Shown here: one piece after another, positions 1,095 through 6,175 of the stretch | How the letters are laid out: every line of letters starts with the position of its first letter | How positions within the stretch are numbered: the stretch's first letter is position 1 | Virus record (IMG/VR): IMGVR_UViG_2778261313_000003 | Span: 1 to 9,379 of that record | DNA: 9,379 bases | Reading direction: 5' to 3' (one strand) | Source of the DNA: a virus | Lineage: Duplodnaviria > Heunggongvirae > Uroviricota > Caudoviricetes | Notes under the pieces: generated by a model | The model's input: only the letters and a program-made list of their open reading frames with translations | The model's database searches: none | What the model was told of the DNA's origin: nothing | Position numbers and translations under genes: made by a program

Positions 1095-2290
1095 GACTCC
1101 ACCGTTATAACGATATTTCCCGGGGTACAGGACGCAGATTCGTTGTATCTGATATCAATGTTTGATGACGACAAAGCCCCCGGGGATTTCCCAATCGTCA
1201 GTTCCTGAATATCGTAATAGCGTGCATTCCCGCCACTCACCACGCCAAGATTCGCCGGTGAGTAAATGCGACTCAAAAGGACCGAATCACCAATCGTCAG
1301 ACTATTGATATAGTCTGAAATAGCCTGCTGGATCTGCTGCCCTATCTGTGAGGTATAACCCGTAAAAACTTTTAATTTAATCCGGGCATAAACAGGCACA
1401 TCACTGGAACGCGAGAATTTGATTACATGGGGATTGCCGTATTTATCCGGAACCGTAACGGATGTTGTACCGTGAGTGGCTGTCCCCTGGCCTTTATTCC
1501 CTCTGATAGCCTGAGCAATATCCGTCACATCACCGCCATCCACAATTACAGCAACAGAGTGTGGCGGTAACCCGTTACCGTCCTCCGAACCAGTATCGTT
1601 TTCATAGAGTTTGTGGCGGGTTACACCGGTAACATTAGAAACAGCACCATCCAGTGCTTCAAATGGGGTTATTGATGGCAACGCAACACTTTGCGACTGG
1701 CGGATACGTAACTCCGCATCAGTTTCTGCTGGAGTGCCTACAGTAGCTGCAGCAGGATTGGTTACCGAAACCCAGCCACGGGTTGGCGTATTAATTTCAG
1801 TGATAGTTCCAGCCAGCGCCGCCACTGCACCACTGACGGAACATTTTGCGGTCACCATCACTGTACCATCCACGCCGACCACCACTGAAGCAGGCAAACG
1901 CCATATCACATTATTACTGTCTTTCACGCTGCCATTAATGATGGTTGTTCCGGCAGTTCCTGTAAGAAGCAAATCAACCGTAGAATTCGTCGCGCCTTTA
2001 CGTGAAATACCATTTATTTTCACGTTACTGGTCAGTGCAGCCCCATAGCCGGTTGCCGGTGAAAAACAGTTGTAGACAGTTATCGCCATATTATTGGCAT
2101 CATGAATCGCCAGCGCCATCAGAGCCACCATCTGGCCGTCTTTGCTGTCCGGTTCGAGGTAGGCATCACTGCCATAAATCTGCTGAAAATAGCTAATCAG
2201 GGTGCTGAGTATCGTCTGATAATCAGGCGCACTGATCCCCTCCGCGGTTACCTTTGCAGATAAACCGAGAGAATCAAGGTTCAGAGCCAT
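1091..2290 (-). CDS. baseplate J-like protein (gp6/gpJ/Mu gp47 type)
   Basis: 399-aa ORF, translationally coupled on both sides by overlapping start/stop codons. Size, Gly/Thr/Ser-rich composition and position between the W-position and I-position genes match baseplate J proteins. Confidence 0.65.
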   Translation of the reverse strand: MALNLDSLGLSAKVTAEGISAPDYQTILSTLISYFQQIYGSDAYLEPDSKDGQMVALMALAIHDANNMAITVYNCFSPATGYGAALTSNVKINGISRKGATNSTVDLLLTGTAGTTIINGSVKDSNNVIWRLPASVVVGVDGTVMVTAKCSVSGAVAALAGTITEINTPTRGWVSVTNPAAATVGTPAETDAELRIRQSQSVALPSITPFEALDGAVSNVTGVTRHKLYENDTGSEDGNGLPPHSVAVIVDGGDVTDIAQAIRGNKGQGTATHGTTSVTVPDKYGNPHVIKFSRSSDVPVYARIKLKVFTGYTSQIGQQIQQAISDYINSLTIGDSVLLSRIYSPANLGVVSGGNARYYDIQELTIGKSPGALSSSNIDIRYNESASCTPGNIVITVES

Positions 2291-2643
2291 TACGCCTCCG
2301 ATGTAACAGTCGTTATTCCATAAAGAGTGTCGATTTCAGCGGAAAACATGACACGTCGGGTCGTGGTATCCACCGTCGTATTGAAAGAGAGGATTGATTT
2401 AACGCCCTGCGTTTCGAGGATGCGCTTACGGATCGCCAGGTTGTAGGTTTCCGGCTTCTGCTTACCGAGTACGGACTGGATCCACGGAGTCCCCTCGGTG
2501 GTGTCGAGAAACCATTGCCCATACCACAATTCGAATCGAGTTTTTACCGCCTGCGCCACGGCCTCCGGTGAGTTAATCAGCCAAGTGTCATCACCGCTGC
2601 CAAAGGTGTAATCGCCATCGGCGTCTTCACGTCTGTATCGCAT
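2290..2643 (-). CDS. small baseplate protein at the gpW/gp25 position (Mu gp46-like)
   Basis: 117-aa ORF whose ATG overlaps the stop of the V-like gene and whose stop overlaps the ATG of the J-like gene. Call is by synteny; no lysozyme-like motif was verified. Confidence 0.5.
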   Translation of the reverse strand: MRYRREDADGDYTFGSGDDTWLINSPEAVAQAVKTRFELWYGQWFLDTTEGTPWIQSVLGKQKPETYNLAIRKRILETQGVKSILSFNTTVDTTTRRVMFSAEIDTLYGITTVTSEA

Positions 2644-3395
2644 CAGTTTACTCCGTCGGTATTGCTTCCACCGCGCTGAACACCACCATGAGTGTGCGTA
2701 TCATCGATTGGCTTGCCGTTAGCCTTCACGCTACCCAAAAACTCAACAGCACCAGTGATTTTTGAAGCCACACCAGAAACAACAGACCCCACCATGCCTC
2801 CCATCCAGGTTAACAGGCCATGAATGGTTACTTTCTCAGAAAAATCAGCCAGAGGGGCAACCACATCAAGGCCCCCCGGAGCGACAATTTTAATTTTCCT
2901 GGTATCAGGATTAAGCTCAAAATAGGTGCTGCCGTCATCACTACGCAACTGTGTGGCACTGGTATTAATACCGCTAATCTTCCTTGCCTGCGACTGGGGA
3001 CCGACAATACAAAACGCATCCGATAAATCATGCATTCTGTCATCGACCGGCTCCTGTATCCCGCCACTCTGCCACCAGAAATCAATACAACGATCGGCAA
3101 AAATCACCAAACATTCATCACCGGCTTTAACTGGAAACGTTAGCGTACAGCCTCCGCCACGCGGGAATACCACTGGCACATCCACCAGCAATGGGTAATT
3201 TTTGGTAATGCGGTTGCCGTCGTTATCAATTTCAACGTAACGGATAGCAGGCTGTACAACCGCCGTCACCGCATCAGGAGCGAATGACTGAACAATGCCA
3301 GGCAAGGCGACACGGATCTGGTTCTTTGTTGTTTCCCGTTCAGATTTAAATGTTTCGGCAAGGTCGCCGCTGCGGGTCTGGTCAGATACTGCCAT
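2643..3395 (-). CDS. baseplate central spike / assembly protein V-like
   Basis: 250-aa ORF. The N-terminal half contains ...PLLVDVPVVFPRGGG...GDECLVIFADRCIDFWW...RMHDLSDAFCIVG, a pattern I recognise from spike N-terminal (gp138-N / Mu gp45-type) domains. RBS GGAG sits 8 nt upstream of the ATG at 3393..3395. Confidence 0.6.
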   Translation of the reverse strand: MAVSDQTRSGDLAETFKSERETTKNQIRVALPGIVQSFAPDAVTAVVQPAIRYVEIDNDGNRITKNYPLLVDVPVVFPRGGGCTLTFPVKAGDECLVIFADRCIDFWWQSGGIQEPVDDRMHDLSDAFCIVGPQSQARKISGINTSATQLRSDDGSTYFELNPDTRKIKIVAPGGLDVVAPLADFSEKVTIHGLLTWMGGMVGSVVSGVASKITGAVEFLGSVKANGKPIDDTHTHGGVQRGGSNTDGVN

Positions 3396-3411: not shown

Positions 3412-3440
3412 AGCAAAAAACCCTCCAAGTGGCGGGTTTG
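3412..3440 (-). terminator. putative rho-independent terminator downstream of the HEPN-like gene
   Basis: Minus-strand RNA would read CCCGCC-ACUU-GGAGGG (five G-C pairs with one internal G/A mismatch, extendable by flanking A-U pairs) followed by UUUUUU. It lies between the stop of the 142-aa gene (3460) and the RBS of the V-like gene (3404..3407). Confidence 0.45.
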
Positions 3441-3459: not shown

Positions 3460-3888
3460 TTATGCAGTTAACGAGTCATCACCAATCTTCAGTAATTGAT
3501 TAACGATTGCATCGACCTCTTCCGCATCCAGAATTACACTTCTCGCGGTAATCCGGTTGATTTTCCGCTCAAGCTTGTAATCAGAATTAACACGTTGGGC
3601 ATGCGTCATTTTCAGTTTAACGCCGATTTTCTTTACTGCGTTAACATCAACATCGTTAAGTGCAGCTGCCTCACCACTACAAAAGGCCGTATAGACTCGC
3701 ATGTGAACTCCACCTTTTAGTTTTTCACCATCTTGTGTAGCGGTCGGTACCAGATTGTTGGTGATCCGTAAGACGGAATGGTACATACCATAGTATGCTC
3801 GGCTAATAGCATTTCTCGTCCACATCTCACCGTTTAGAGCCAGGGAATGCTTAGCCAATTCAAGAAAACAGGTATGCTCAACCGACAT
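3460..3888 (-). CDS. HEPN-like domain protein (UPF0332-type), candidate RNase toxin/effector
   Basis: 142-aa ORF with ordered motifs as in classical HEPN/UPF0332 proteins: SRAYYGMYH (res 29-37, Arg30-x6-His37), KGGVHMRVYTAF (58-69), QRVNSDY (98-104) and an acidic C-terminal helix DAEEVDAIVNQLL. The ATG shares one nucleotide with the stop of the upstream 243-aa gene (TAATG). Assignment is from motif recall, not an HMM score. Confidence 0.5.
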   Translation of the reverse strand: MSVEHTCFLELAKHSLALNGEMWTRNAISRAYYGMYHSVLRITNNLVPTATQDGEKLKGGVHMRVYTAFCSGEAAALNDVDVNAVKKIGVKLKMTHAQRVNSDYKLERKINRITARSVILDAEEVDAIVNQLLKIGDDSLTA

Positions 3889-4619
3889 TAGAGTTCCCCG
3901 GCTTCAAAGCATCCGACGCATTCTGAATCCGCAAGCCCCGCAATAATAATCTCATCAGCCAAGGCATTATTCATCTGCGAAAGAAGCACTGGATCGTCTG
4001 TTTTGACTTCAACGAACAGCGTATCAAGTTCTGACATTACATAAAAAGCATGAGCGCCAGCAAGACGAGCGCGGTACTTTTCTGCAACGTTCATCATGAG
4101 CCGCCCAATAGTTTTTAGCTCCTGAGCATGATCTTTTTGGGTATGCAGATAATTGAGCGTGTCATACCATTTGCCCATATCTTCAGGGCGCGGTACTTCC
4201 ATTGCAGTTAGCATCGGCATCACCTTTTCAAGCAAATCGATATCAACCCAGTATGCAGAAATTGTAGCAACCTCAGCCAATATCGTTGGATTAAGTGAAT
4301 CAGATGCTTTCTGAATCATCACATACTGGCGAGCATGCAAACCTAAGTTACGCAGCGCAATCGTATAGTTACAAAAAGAAACTGGATCGTTAGGCGCTAT
4401 TCTCAACCCCCGCTCACAGAGTGAACATCCTTCATCTATTTCACCAAGAACAAGCTTAGCTAAGCCTTCAATTGATAGCCCCTGATAACGTTCAGGTAGT
4501 TTCTTCGCTTCACGAATGATTCGATGGATTTCAAACTCACTCAGAAGGTTTTCACCCTTAGTTAATGAAGGAGTCAGAAGATCTAACAGTTCTCCTGATT
4601 TTGGCTGCGCTAAACTCAT
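3888..4619 (-). CDS. hypothetical protein, first gene of the two-gene cassette (possible antitoxin/sensor partner)
   Basis: 243-aa ORF, start ATG at 4617..4619 preceded by AGGA about 11 nt upstream. Predicted mostly helical with two CxxC motifs (C65-S-L-C68 and C234-V-G-C237). No Walker A and no nucleotidyltransferase G[SG]...DxD motif was seen. By eye the gene is roughly 40-45% GC against roughly 50-60% in flanking tail genes. Confidence 0.6.
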   Translation of the reverse strand: MSLAQPKSGELLDLLTPSLTKGENLLSEFEIHRIIREAKKLPERYQGLSIEGLAKLVLGEIDEGCSLCERGLRIAPNDPVSFCNYTIALRNLGLHARQYVMIQKASDSLNPTILAEVATISAYWVDIDLLEKVMPMLTAMEVPRPEDMGKWYDTLNYLHTQKDHAQELKTIGRLMMNVAEKYRARLAGAHAFYVMSELDTLFVEVKTDDPVLLSQMNNALADEIIIAGLADSECVGCFEAGEL

Positions 4620-4768
4620 GTTTTAGTTATTCCTGGCTTTAATGAAGTAGCATATCGATGGCAATCCACCATCAAAAAGTCAGTGCAGTGTAATCGCTCG
4701 TCTCAAAAAACAACAGTTTTTAGAGCACATTTTGTTGTTTTTCAGGCGTTACGAATTTCAGGTTACCT
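4620..4768 (-). promoter_or_regulatory. intergenic leader of the cassette with a weak sigma70-like promoter candidate
   Basis: 149-bp non-coding gap upstream of the 243-aa gene. On the minus strand the best candidate is TTGATG (plus 4670..4675) and TATGCT (plus 4649..4654) with a 15-nt spacer, which is suboptimal. No strong consensus promoter was found. Confidence 0.25.
4705..4742. repeat. AT-rich inverted repeat (10-11 bp arms, about 17-nt spacer)
   Basis: AAAAAACAACA at 4705..4715 is the exact reverse complement of TGTTGTTTTT(T) at 4733..4742. It lies in the gap between the secreted-protein gene and the cassette. Confidence 0.5.
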
Positions 4769-5110
4769 TCACCCAGCCACTTTTTTACAAGGGAAAGATC
4801 CGATGATTTTCGGCGCATCCATGCTGTTCTGCAGAAGCTGGACATTCAGGAATCGCGTTTCGGTACCAGGGCGACGAATGTATTCAAAGCCGTAGTTGTT
4901 ACCGTCTTTGGCAGGCATAAGCCCCATGTCTACTTTCAAACCATTGGTACCCAGTTCGGTGATTTTTTGAGAGGTAACTCTTTCACCGTTGATAGTCGAT
5001 AACTCGCCCTGGTTTGCAACCATAGTGTAGCCACCGCATTTAACCGTGAAGCCATCCGCCCACGCGCTGCACGCAGAAAAGACAGCTAACAGAAAAATAA
5101 TACCCCTCAT
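4769..5110 (-). CDS. small secreted protein or lipoprotein of unknown function
   Basis: 113-aa ORF with an N-terminal signal peptide (MRGIIFLLAVFSACSAWA; possible lipobox FSAC or signal peptidase I site AWA/DG) and two Cys in the mature part. RBS AGGGGA sits 6 nt upstream of the ATG, which lies 3 nt after the hub gene stop. Confidence 0.6.
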   Translation of the reverse strand: MRGIIFLLAVFSACSAWADGFTVKCGGYTMVANQGELSTINGERVTSQKITELGTNGLKVDMGLMPAKDGNNYGFEYIRRPGTETRFLNVQLLQNSMDAPKIIGSFPCKKVAG

Positions 5111-5113
5111 TGC

Positions 5114-6175
5114 TCATCCCCTTTGCAAAGCCGATCGCGTATACAGATCCGCCGCGCCACGCGCTTCGCACATCATATCCATGTACCACGCCTGGCCCCT
5201 TGTGTCGCCAGTGTACATAATCCCGCGCACAATATAAACGCCATCCGTTGCGATGCTGGCAGGCTGCGATGTGGTGCCGCTTAGCGTGATATTTCCATCC
5301 GTGTTCTGGTCGGTGATCTGACCACCAGCCATCGCAATATCGTTGTTCGACAAGGCGGTACGATACACGGAAGCCTGATCCAGCTGAATAAGTCCGTTAA
5401 CCCGGATGTTCGGATTAATAAGCGCGCGGACGTTTACGCCGTTACCGATAGTCTGCTGCGGCATGCCAATAAGCCCGGTAGCGCTGTTGAGCACAATCGC
5501 TTCATGAACATATTCGTTATTCGCCACCATCTGGCGCTGACCGTCCACGAATTGCCATGTTGCGCCACATTGCCCGGCTACGTTATCCATTAGATGCCGC
5601 GTCATGCCAAAGAGTACCCGCCCCCGGGGGAATACAGTAGCAGGCATTTCAGGCGTCAGGCCTTCGGTCGCGCCTTTGGCTTCGAAGTCTTTCATCAGCG
5701 CACGGTTTACATCAGCGACCGTGTAACCGGCAGCCAGCGTCTGTGAGGTTATACTGGTGGCAAAAGCCAGATCAGTATCTGCTGCCTGAATCAGGACGTA
5801 GGAATCAACCGGACTGTCTTTTCCTGTGACCGAGTAGCGAATTTCACCGCTGAAAATCAGTCCGTAGTTGCGGCCATCACTCTGACCCACGTCCGCCGCG
5901 TCAACTTCCCGCACGGTCCCGACGTCGCTTGCCGACACCTCCGGCGCGATACCGTCGTAACCGGCAATCAGACGCACTTTCGAAAACTCCTGCCCGGTGA
6001 TTCGGTTCACAGTATCTGCCGAGAGGTTATAAATTTTGATAGTCCCTACCCGGGACGCGCTGCTGATGTTGAACCAGTCGATCGTAAAGGTGACTTTAAA
6101 ATCACTTAGCTCAATTCCCTGACCGTTCCCGTCCACAAGCTGCAGCTCGAAATGTCTCATCCAGTTCTGTGACAT
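5114..6175 (-). CDS. putative baseplate hub protein (P2 gpD / Mu gp44 / XkdQ-like)
   Basis: 353-aa ORF with RBS GGAG 5 nt upstream of the ATG. Size, position after the tape measure and small tail genes, and a C-terminal ...DGVYIVRGIMYTGDTRGQAWY... segment resemble hub proteins of simple contractile tails. Identity is inferred. Confidence 0.45.
   Translation of the reverse strand: MSQNWMRHFELQLVDGNGQGIELSDFKVTFTIDWFNISSASRVGTIKIYNLSADTVNRITGQEFSKVRLIAGYDGIAPEVSASDVGTVREVDAADVGQSDGRNYGLIFSGEIRYSVTGKDSPVDSYVLIQAADTDLAFATSITSQTLAAGYTVADVNRALMKDFEAKGATEGLTPEMPATVFPRGRVLFGMTRHLMDNVAGQCGATWQFVDGQRQMVANNEYVHEAIVLNSATGLIGMPQQTIGNGVNVRALINPNIRVNGLIQLDQASVYRTALSNNDIAMAGGQITDQNTDGNITLSGTTSQPASIATDGVYIVRGIMYTGDTRGQAWYMDMMCEARGAADLYTRSALQRG

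What the first reader, a model, noticed from the sequence alone, without database searches (positions are those of the whole stretch)
3460..4619. Self-contained two-gene cassette with a HEPN-like second gene: candidate novel defence or toxin-antitoxin system
Two translationally coupled genes (243 aa then 142 aa, TAATG overlap) sit between the hub and spike genes of the tail module. They have their own 149-bp leader and their own terminator, the architecture of a phage moron. The second gene is HEPN-like; HEPN domains are RNase effectors in many abortive-infection and toxin-antitoxin systems. The first gene is not the minimal nucleotidyltransferase that normally partners this HEPN type, so the pairing does not match any system I can name from sequence.
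Basis: partly seen in the sequence, partly recalled or inferred. Interest (0 to 1): 0.85.

Follow-up and report, generated by a model that had tools for sequence, protein, structure and literature searches.

The report
Prophage HEPN gene pair with TPR partner
An E. coli prophage carries, inside its tail genes, a mobile two-gene cassette pairing a likely RNA-cutting HEPN protein with a TPR repeat protein that replaces the usual antitoxin enzyme, which makes it a good but untested candidate toxin-antitoxin or anti-phage system.

Summary
Two co-directional genes lie on the minus strand: 243 aa (4619-3888) and 142 aa (3888-3460). They share a TAATG junction, follow a 149-nt leader and end at a hairpin with a T-run. 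They sit between the baseplate hub (plus a conserved 113-aa gene) and the spike of a SEN34/Brunovirus-like E. coli prophage.

The pair always travels together. I found it in at least five different prophage slots and in some chromosomal sites across Gamma- and Betaproteobacteria. In 17 of 17 proteobacterial loci sampled, the HEPN has this TPR partner. In 13 of 13 archaeal or other loci, it has a classical MNT instead.

No match reached a curated cut-off in Pfam or NCBIfam. PADLOC gave only weak partial matches, PHROGs lists both families as function unknown, and no paper describes the pair.

Best reading: a HEPN toxin/partner module with a swapped antitoxin, carried as a phage accessory cassette, probably for toxin-antitoxin or abortive-infection function. 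Toxicity, RNase activity, defence and an own promoter are all unproven.

The parts
4620..4768 (-). 149-nt leader between the 113-aa gene and the TPR gene. It holds an A/T-rich hairpin followed by a T-run (arms 4706-4715/4733-4742) and a palindrome at about 4655-4675 (GATGGTGGATTGCCATC). An AGGA lies 11 nt before the ATG.
   Evidence: No consensus promoter on this strand. A hairpin plus T-run also lies 30-130 nt upstream of the TPR gene ATG in L004, L017 and L088 by the scan and in L015 by reading the leader alignment. About 140 nt of leader is shared between the Serratia baseplate copy and the Yersinia lysis-terminase copy.
3888..4619 (-). 243-aa partner protein. It has an N-terminal helical region, TPR-like repeats (residues about 45-180) and a C-terminal beta-beta-alpha-beta domain (186-240). 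No enzymatic motif is conserved. Proposed antitoxin and/or sensor.
3460..3888 (-). 142-aa HEPN protein of the AF0298/UPF0332 type. Conserved residues: E21, R25, R30, Y32, Y33, H37, H62 (in GGxHxR), R99-x3-D103-Y104. Proposed RNase effector or toxin.
3412..3439 (-). Intrinsic-terminator-like hairpin plus T-run, 21 nt after the HEPN stop and just before the spike gene RBS.
   Evidence: An equivalent terminator follows the HEPN gene in L004, L014/L015, L017 and L088.
4769..5110 (-). Context: conserved 113-aa protein with a signal-peptide/lipobox-like N-terminus. It forms the upstream border of the variable slot and is not part of the cassette.
   Evidence: (phrog_3443).
5114..6175 (-). Context: baseplate hub.
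   Evidence: phrog_196 baseplate hub, 1.2e-88; PF22759 E217_GP41.
2643..3395 (-). Context: membrane-puncturing spike (N-terminal spike domain plus GpV apex). It forms the downstream border of the variable slot.
   Evidence: PF18352 3.6e-43, PF18946; RefSeq annotation.

Best explanation
The cassette is a mobile two-gene HEPN module carried as accessory cargo by temperate phages.

The 142-aa protein is an AF0298/UPF0332-type HEPN domain. Members of the wider HEPN superfamily act as RNase toxins, for example in HEPN-MNT modules. It keeps the subfamily's conserved polar set: R99, D103, Y104 and the alternative His62. It is therefore most likely a metal-independent endoribonuclease that acts as a dimer.

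Its usual partner, a minimal nucleotidyltransferase antitoxin, has been replaced in a proteobacterial subclade by a non-enzymatic 243-aa TPR plus alpha/beta protein. This gene lies upstream and is translationally coupled, which is the classic antitoxin-first layout.

I infer that the TPR protein binds the HEPN protein and keeps it silent, in the manner of a type II antitoxin. Either loss of the partner or binding of a phage-derived protein or peptide in the TPR groove would then release the RNase. The result would be growth arrest or abortive infection, which would protect the lysogen from competing phages and/or stabilise the prophage.

Shown here: gene anatomy, folds, conserved residues, strict co-occurrence, partner replacement, mobility between phage slots, and the flanking terminator. 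Inferred: RNase activity, toxicity, neutralisation by the TPR protein, the trigger, and expression in the lysogen.
For: HEPN assignment:
- The wider family keeps E21, R25, Y32, Y33, H37, R99, D103 and Y104 invariant, with R30 and H62 near-invariant, across 59 sequences of 24-46% identity.
[quoted passage not shown] That is where Anantharaman et al. place the alternative catalytic His of AF0298-like HEPN and AbiV (PMC3710099).

Partnership of the two genes:
- The genes overlap or abut (-1 to +1 nt) in every close copy.
- They co-occur in all loci inspected.
- In E. coli they are always present or absent together, in 33 of 33 genomes at 100% coverage.
- Pairwise identities of the two proteins co-vary (r 0.94).

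Partner replacement:
- 17 of 17 proteobacterial HEPN loci have the TPR-alpha/beta gene upstream.
- 13 of 13 archaeal or other loci have a PF01909 MNT next to the HEPN gene or fused upstream of it.

Mobility as a unit:
- Brunovirus-like hub-spike slot (E. coli, Salmonella, Ewingella, Serratia).
- Klebsiella siphovirus, upstream of the tape measure gene.
- Yersinia prophage, between the lysis genes and terminase.
- Atlantibacter prophage, next to lambda-like tail genes, and Vibrio, next to a P2-type gpA gene. In E. coli P2-like phages the gpA-gpQ interval is a published defence hotspot (PMC9122126).
- nin region of Klebsiella phage vB_Kpn_Chronis.

The slot is variable. It can hold a YafO-family toxin pair instead, among other cargo.

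Other support: GC dip and the downstream terminator seen in the other contexts checked. The prophage has a Q antiterminator, so the late operon can read through the terminators.
Against: - There is no experimental evidence here or in the library for toxicity, RNase activity or defence.
- The canonical Rx4-6H histidine is absent, and I found no report of activity for the AF0298-type site.
- No sigma-70-like promoter was found in the leader, so expression in the lysogen is unproven.
- The TPR protein has no recognisable DNA-binding domain for the autoregulation typical of type II antitoxins.
- PADLOC gives only a weak HEPN_IX hit (E 0.0036).
- None of the other cargo in this slot is a PADLOC defence gene.
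- In one Gilliamella locus the partner gene carries an in-frame stop while the HEPN gene is intact. That fits poorly with an indispensable antitoxin.
Confidence: 0.55

Rival explanations
1. It is a pure addiction or stabilisation toxin-antitoxin module. The pair works as a TA that penalises loss of the prophage, or is simply a selfish element, and has no role in excluding other phages.
For: The anatomy is the same as in the best explanation. Another TA-like pair, a YafO-family toxin plus a 190-aa gene, occupies the same slot in other prophages. No known defence genes sit in this slot. Some copies are chromosomal and outside recognisable prophages, in L067, L068 and L079.
Against: The pair is overwhelmingly found at accessory-gene positions of temperate phages, including next to P2-type gpA, which borders a validated defence hotspot in E. 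coli P2-like phages. Peptide-binding TPR modules are common sensors in bacterial immunity (established knowledge). The two roles are not exclusive.
Confidence: 0.2
2. It is a late-expressed phage function rather than a lysogen function. The cassette is transcribed only with the Q-antiterminated late operon. It would then help the phage itself, for example by host or rival RNA degradation, counter-defence, or nucleotide or RNA binding during virion production.
For: No promoter-like site lies in the leader on the coding strand. The cassette is co-oriented with the late operon, which has a Q antiterminator upstream. A hairpin plus T-run upstream of the TPR gene in several contexts would block non-antiterminated transcription.
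Against: The pair also sits in early or nin regions (vB_Kpn_Chronis) and in non-prophage chromosomal sites, where late-operon coupling cannot apply. The consensus scan is insensitive. The leader travels with the cassette between contexts, which suggests that it carries its own signals.
Confidence: 0.12
3. It is a catalytically inactive HEPN acting as a binding module, for RNA, nucleotides or protein, together with a TPR scaffold. An example would be an assembly or regulatory factor for the tail or baseplate.
Against: The cassette is absent from more than 90% of otherwise near-identical prophages, and unrelated cargo replaces it. The same pair occurs in siphovirus, lysis-terminase, nin and chromosomal contexts. 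A set of invariant charged and polar residues (H62, R99, D103, Y104, E21, R25, H37) is what Anantharaman et al. take as the sign of an active alternative site.
Confidence: 0.06

Closest known systems
AF0298/UPF0332-type HEPN proteins (the 'HEPN-T' group of Anantharaman et al. 2013; PDB 2hsb, 9xbd) with adjacent minimal nucleotidyltransferase (MNT)
   Different: The partner differs. Archaeal and other relatives have a PF01909 MNT with GSx10DxD next to the HEPN gene (13 of 13). The window's clade has a 243-aa TPR plus alpha/beta protein with no similarity to MNT (17 of 17). The window protein itself does not reach any Pfam HEPN model.
HepT/MntA type VII toxin-antitoxin (Shewanella SO_3166/SO_3165, Aphanizomenon, Legionella; PMC7641770, PMC11586414, PMC13000451)
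   Different: HepT has R-phi-xxx-H-x-Y and is silenced by oligoAMPylation of the Tyr by MntA. Here the His is absent and there is no nucleotidyltransferase, so neutralisation, if any, must work by another mechanism, presumably binding.
HepS, the single-protein HEPN abortive-infection system of the Salmonella prophage Gifsy-1 (PMC13043305)
   Same: A prophage-encoded HEPN protein in an enterobacterial temperate phage. It shows that a prophage HEPN can sense phage structural proteins and cut tRNA to abort infection. This is a functional analogy for the proposed mechanism.
   Different: HepS is one protein that both senses and cleaves. No sequence relationship was detected here. The window system has a separate TPR partner.
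Other HEPN families recorded with TPR or Sel1 partners (LA2681 family fused to and in operon with TPR; AbiU2 with a Sel1-repeat gene; C6orf70; PMC3710099)
   Same: A genomic association of a HEPN domain with a helical-repeat protein.
   Different: According to that paper's table, those are different HEPN families that keep the canonical Rx4-6H. I could not compare sequences because none were at hand. None of them is described as an MNT replacement in the AF0298 branch.
Phage morons and accessory-gene hotspots (for example the P2 gpA-gpQ and P4 hotspots; PMC9122126)
   Same: A variable slot between conserved phage genes, alternative cargo, a GC deviation and a terminator-bounded unit. One relative of the pair sits next to a P2-type gpA gene.
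   Different: The hub-spike slot of Brunovirus-like prophages has not been described as a defence hotspot in the papers I could search. Its other cargo has no PADLOC hit.

Membership tests
HEPN superfamily | Four-helix up-and-down bundle with an insert between helices 2 and 3 | tested here: met
HEPN superfamily | Canonical Rx4-6H catalytic motif | tested here: not met
   The motif is R99-V-N-S-D103-Y104. No His lies within 4-6 residues of R99 in any of 21 close or 59 distant relatives.
AF0298/UPF0332-like HEPN-T subfamily | Arg of the motif kept, His replaced, and a second conserved His from the helix 2-3 insert (PMC3710099) | tested here: met
   R99, D103 and Y104 are invariant. H62 is invariant in A1 and A4 and >=90% conserved in A3. 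H62 lies in the 41-81 insert.
AF0298/UPF0332-like HEPN-T subfamily | Sequence-profile relationship to PF05168 or 2hsb | tested here: met
   The direct Pfam scan of the window protein gave no hit. The A1 profile vs 2hsb gave E 0.033. The wider A3 profile gave 2hsb at 3.8e-8 and 9xbd at 3.6e-10. 17 of 59 family members hit PF05168. Membership is therefore transitive, not direct.
HEPN-MNT (HepT/MntA, type VII TA) | Adjacent minimal nucleotidyltransferase with GSx10DxD | tested here: not met
   No PF01909 hit for the 243-aa protein. No GS or DxD among conserved columns. hhalign of A2 vs the MNT alignment A7 gave probability 0.2%. True MNTs sit next to the archaeal relatives.
HEPN-MNT (HepT/MntA, type VII TA) | Toxin silenced by AMPylation of the Tyr next to the R-phi-xxx-H motif | not testable with these tools
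   Y104 is invariant, but there is no transferase in the cassette. Testing needs mass spectrometry of the purified protein.
Type II-like toxin-antitoxin module (generic) | Two small co-directional genes, partner first, translationally coupled, strictly co-inherited | tested here: met
   TAATG junction. Junctions of -1 to +1 nt in homologous loci. Co-occurrence in all loci examined.
Type II-like toxin-antitoxin module (generic) | Toxicity of the second gene, neutralised by the first through direct binding | not testable with these tools
   Needs expression assays or complex modelling.
Type II-like toxin-antitoxin module (generic) | Antitoxin with a DNA-binding domain that autoregulates via an operator | tested here: inconclusive
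   No HTH, RHH or AbrB domain was detected in the 243-aa protein. Palindromes do exist in the leaders.
TPR repeat proteins | Tandem helix-turn-helix 34-residue repeats forming a superhelix | tested here: met
Phage moron / autonomous accessory cassette | Variable presence among otherwise syntenic phages, with alternative cargo at the same slot | tested here: met
   The flanks are present in 279-353 E. coli genomes and the cassette in 33. Alternative cargo is shown.
Phage moron / autonomous accessory cassette | Own terminator | tested here: met
   Hairpin plus T-run at 3412-3439. Seen directly after the HEPN gene in four other contexts.
Phage moron / autonomous accessory cassette | Own promoter | tested here: inconclusive
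   The consensus scan finds none on the coding strand in 4620-4768. Only weak candidates are visible by eye. About 140 nt of leader is conserved between a Serratia and a Yersinia copy in different contexts.
Described anti-phage defence systems (PADLOC-DB v2.0.0) | Significant match of the proteins to a system model | tested here: not met
   HEPN_IX at E 0.0036 and PDC-M71B at E 0.037 only. The accessions are not in the held DefensePredictor supplements (some files truncated). No paper holds the RefSeq accessions.

The most novel reading that the evidence does not exclude
The TPR-alpha/beta protein is a dedicated sensor that recognises a protein of an infecting phage. It directly gates an AF0298-type HEPN RNase that uses the non-canonical His62/Arg99/Asp103/Tyr104 site. 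This would define a new two-component abortive-infection family. It would have arisen by displacement of the MNT antitoxin, and it is spread by temperate phages across Gamma- and Betaproteobacteria. It would also give the first functional read-out for the 'alternative-histidine' HEPN active site.
Probability: 0.3. Interest if true: 0.7.

Novelty: new variant of a known kind. Interest (0 to 1): 0.55.

Why it matters
[quoted passage not shown] Its neutralisation is understood as enzymatic AMPylation. This clade keeps the HEPN protein but has exchanged the enzyme for a repeat protein. That gives a natural experiment on how a toxin is re-wired to a new controller, and possibly to a new trigger.

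The AF0298-type active site, which lacks the canonical histidine, has no biochemical characterisation that I could find. The E. coli copy is easy to clone and test.

The work also points to the hub-spike gap of SEN34/Brunovirus-like prophages as an accessory-gene slot. The slot is present in about 350 of 5426 complete E. coli genomes, and its cargo is almost entirely uncharacterised.

Tried and rejected
Single-sequence searches
- Pfam, NCBIfam and PDB gave nothing above threshold for either protein. Profiles and structure prediction were needed.

Searches that failed or found little
- The profile search for distant relatives of the TPR partner in the 5.8-billion-protein set found only Enterobacterales, because of the word index. 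The distant partners were recovered instead by looking next to distant HEPN genes.

Hypotheses rejected
- The C-terminal alpha/beta domain is not a degenerate MNT. Its topology is beta-beta-alpha-beta, no GS or DxD is conserved, and hhalign probability is 0.2%.
- The pair is not a structural or assembly component of the baseplate, because of its patchy presence and its multiple unrelated contexts.
- The apparent loss of the HEPN gene in Serratia locus L014 is a gene-calling artefact. The DNA is identical to L015.

Leads that did not pan out
- The slot does not contain known defence systems. PADLOC found nothing in the alternative cargo.
- PDB 9xbd and 9xbc, a Y-to-F pair in the RxxxDY motif, could not be traced to a paper.
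Full report
**1. What is in the window**

All long ORFs lie on the minus strand and form the tail and baseplate block of a temperate myovirus. In order of transcription they are:
- tape measure protein (9073-7067)
- Dit-like protein (7067-6480)
- Pam3_gp18-type plug (6480-6178)
- baseplate hub (6175-5114)
- a 113-aa protein with a signal-peptide-like N-terminus (5110-4769)
- the two genes of the finding (4619-3888 and 3888-3460)
- the membrane-puncturing spike (3395-2643)
- a 117-aa gene (2643-2290)
- Baseplate_J (2290-1091)
- DUF2612 (1094-414)

The DNA is 99.9% identical to a prophage inserted near torT in E. coli strain WAT. That prophage has Q antiterminator, lysis, terminase, head and tail genes in the same orientation. 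Its cultured relatives include Salmonella phage SEN34 (genus Brunovirus).

**2. Check of the observation**

The coordinates, lengths, TAATG junction and 149-nt leader are exact. Twenty-one nucleotides after the HEPN stop, the minus strand reads AAACCCGCCACTTGGAGGGTTTTTTG, a hairpin plus T-run. The consensus scan missed it because of one mismatch. The fold energy of the surrounding 70 nt is not unusual. However, a terminator-like hairpin follows the HEPN gene in the Klebsiella, Serratia and Yersinia copies and in phage Chronis.

GC content drops to 0.41-0.46 over the cassette, against 0.49-0.57 on either side. The scan found no promoter-like site on the coding strand of the leader. The leader does contain an A/T-rich hairpin with a T-run and a second palindrome.

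**3. The 142-aa protein**

Single-sequence searches of Pfam, NCBIfam and the PDB gave nothing. PADLOC gave a weak HEPN_IX hit (E 0.0036), and PHROGs places the protein in phrog_5176, function unknown.

A profile search of 1.84 billion cluster representatives finds 1027 related clusters, almost all 110-160 aa long. In 59 sampled members (24-46% identical to the query), E21, R25, Y32, Y33, H37, R99, D103 and Y104 are invariant, and R30 and H62 are nearly so. Seventeen of the 59 hit PF05168 HEPN. The family profile hits PDB 9xbd (3.6e-10) and 2hsb (3.8e-8).

The canonical Rx4-6H histidine is absent; the motif is R-x3-D-Y. Anantharaman et al. describe exactly this for the AF0298-like HEPN-T family and for AbiV. 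In those, the Arg is kept, the His is lost, and a second strongly conserved His from the insert between helices 2 and 3 is proposed to rebuild the active site (PMC3710099). H62, in the invariant GGxHxR, lies in that insert.

The fold and subfamily are therefore shown. Catalysis is inferred.

**4. The 243-aa protein**

Two full-length structural matches exist among uncultured siphoviruses in BFVD (TM 0.66-0.68). No GS or DxD motif, or other catalytic signature, is conserved. hhalign against genuine MNT neighbours gives probability 0.2%. The protein is not a nucleotidyltransferase.

**5. The two genes are one unit**

Every homologue of the 243-aa protein whose contig I examined has a HEPN homologue immediately downstream, abutting or overlapping by one base. 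In complete E. coli genomes the 1160-bp cassette is found whole in 33 of 5426 genomes and never in part.

I then scanned one genome per species for HEPN relatives, which gave 31 loci, 30 of which could be typed. The two groups are cleanly separated:
- All 17 proteobacterial loci carry a homologue of the TPR-alpha/beta protein directly upstream. These are Citrobacter, Pseudocitrobacter, Enterobacter pulveris, Yokenella, Atlantibacter, two Shewanella, Vibrio, Thorsellia, two Yersinia pekkanenii, Gilliamella, two Serratia, a Methylococcaceae MAG and the betaproteobacterium Pararobbsia. Profile E-values range from 1e-105 to 3e-10 after one round of enlargement.
- All 13 archaeal and other loci carry instead a PF01909 minimal nucleotidyltransferase with GSx10DxD, as a separate 89-181 aa gene in 12 and fused to a larger upstream protein in one.

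The window's system is therefore a subclade of the classical HEPN-MNT module in which the antitoxin gene has been replaced.

**6. Mobility and the slot**

The pair occurs in these contexts:
- the hub-spike gap of Brunovirus-like prophages in E. coli, Salmonella, Ewingella and Serratia
- a Klebsiella siphovirus, upstream of the tape measure gene
- a Yersinia mollaretii prophage, between the lysis cassette and terminase
- Atlantibacter, next to lambda-like tail genes, and Vibrio, next to a P2-type gpA gene
- the nin region of Klebsiella phage vB_Kpn_Chronis, the only cultured phage copy
- a few chromosomal sites, next to mutS, IMPDH or bipA

In E. coli P2-like phages, the gpA-gpQ interval is a published defence hotspot (PMC9122126). 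About 140 nt of leader is shared between a Serratia baseplate copy and a Yersinia lysis-terminase copy, although their flanks differ.

In E. coli the flanking genes occur in 279-353 genomes, but the slot between the 113-aa gene and the spike holds different cargo. Examples are a YafO-family toxin with a 190-aa partner, DUF2335, DUF4282, divergent TPR-HEPN alleles, and other small genes in SEN34 and vB_EcoM-606R2. None of this other cargo matches PADLOC. The slot is therefore an accessory-gene hotspot, but not a demonstrated defence hotspot.

**7. How it most likely works**

By analogy with HEPN toxins (HepT, RnlA/LsoA, AbiV, HepS), and given the conserved polar set, the 142-aa protein is most likely a dimeric, metal-independent endoribonuclease. 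The partner-first, translationally coupled layout and the strict co-inheritance fit a neutralising partner. Because that partner has no enzymatic motifs, neutralisation is probably by binding rather than by AMPylation as in HepT/MntA (PMC7641770; PMC13000451).

TPR grooves bind peptides. A plausible trigger is therefore a phage protein that competes for, or remodels, the TPR protein. The alternative is simple decay of the partner when host gene expression collapses. The prophage HEPN protein HepS shows that a prophage HEPN can be activated by phage structural proteins and can abort infection by cutting tRNA (PMC13043305).

All of these steps are inference.

**8. Points against, and rivals**

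- No promoter was detected, so the cassette might be expressed only with the late operon.
- The AF0298-type site has no published activity that I could find.
- One Gilliamella copy has an interrupted partner gene and an intact HEPN gene.
- The slot's other cargo is not known defence.

The rivals are an addiction-only TA, a late lytic function, and a non-catalytic binding module. They are listed with tests in the rival explanations. A structural role in the baseplate is rejected because of the patchy distribution and the unrelated contexts.

**9. Comparison with what is known, and novelty**

The HEPN half is a member of a known subfamily. The module type, a HEPN effector plus an adjacent controller, is known. 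TPR and Sel1 associations have been noted for other HEPN families.

What appears undescribed is this particular partner family (phrog_22649, 37103 and 17809, all function unknown) and the clean MNT-to-TPR replacement in a phage-borne proteobacterial clade. PADLOC v2 gave only weak partial hits, and Pfam and NCBIfam gave nothing above threshold. The held DefensePredictor tables, the RefSeq-accession search and the keyword searches found nothing either.

I class it as a new variant of a known kind. It is worth a bench test, but it would not surprise a specialist, since HEPN-containing candidate systems are found regularly.

Noticed in passing
window 4769-5110 (-): A 113-aa ORF with a signal-peptide/lipobox-like N-terminus (MRGIIFLLAVFSAC/SAWADG), phrog_3443, function unknown. 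It is kept between the hub and the variable slot in every Brunovirus-like prophage examined, so it belongs to the conserved backbone and not to the cargo. A secreted or lipid-anchored protein inside a baseplate operon is unexplained.
   Followed up: partly
window 4655-4675 and 4706-4742; L004 7950-7968; L017 7941-7969; L088 3352-3370: The leaders upstream of the TPR gene carry a hairpin, usually followed by a T-run, 30-130 nt before the ATG. This holds in unrelated genomic contexts, and the hairpin sequences differ. It could be an insulator, an attenuator or an operator.
   Followed up: partly
L019 1096-2086; L020 1111-1683; L021 1112-1351; L002 4138-4809; L003 4157-4669: The same hub-spike slot in related prophages holds other small cargo. 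Examples are a YafO-family toxin with a 190-aa upstream gene, a DUF2335 protein, a DUF4282 protein, and unnamed genes in SEN34 and vB_EcoM-606R2. None of them hits PADLOC. The slot is an unexplored accessory-gene hotspot, present in about 350 of 5426 complete E. coli genomes.
   Followed up: partly
PDB 9xbd / 9xbc: Two recent PDB entries of a 125-131 aa HEPN protein are the closest solved relatives by profile. In the matched region they differ at the Tyr of the RxxxDY motif (RNRSDY vs RNRSDF). That suggests someone is studying this residue. No paper in the library cites them.
   Followed up: partly
plasmid CP049309.1 304514-304648: A 310-kb conjugative Salmonella plasmid holds an unannotated fragment that is 93% identical to HEPN residues 98-142. 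It is probably a remnant of the cassette.
   Followed up: no
L067 2258-3393 (Gilliamella apicola): The TPR partner gene carries an in-frame stop and is split into 157-aa and 86-aa ORFs, while the HEPN gene is intact with all conserved residues. This could be a sequencing error, a functional split, or evidence that the HEPN protein is tolerated without a full-length partner.
   Followed up: partly
window 2290-2643 (-): The 117-aa gene after the spike has no Pfam hit in the window copy at E<=0.1. Its orthologues are recorded as PF10934 Sheath_initiator. RefSeq names them variously 'hypothetical', 'contractile injection system sheath initiator' or 'thioredoxin domain-containing protein', so the annotation is inconsistent.
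   Followed up: no
P0021: A 243-aa ENA protein is 89% identical to two thirds of the HEPN protein and also carries FAD/NAD-binding Pfam domains. It is probably an assembly or gene-calling chimera.
   Followed up: no
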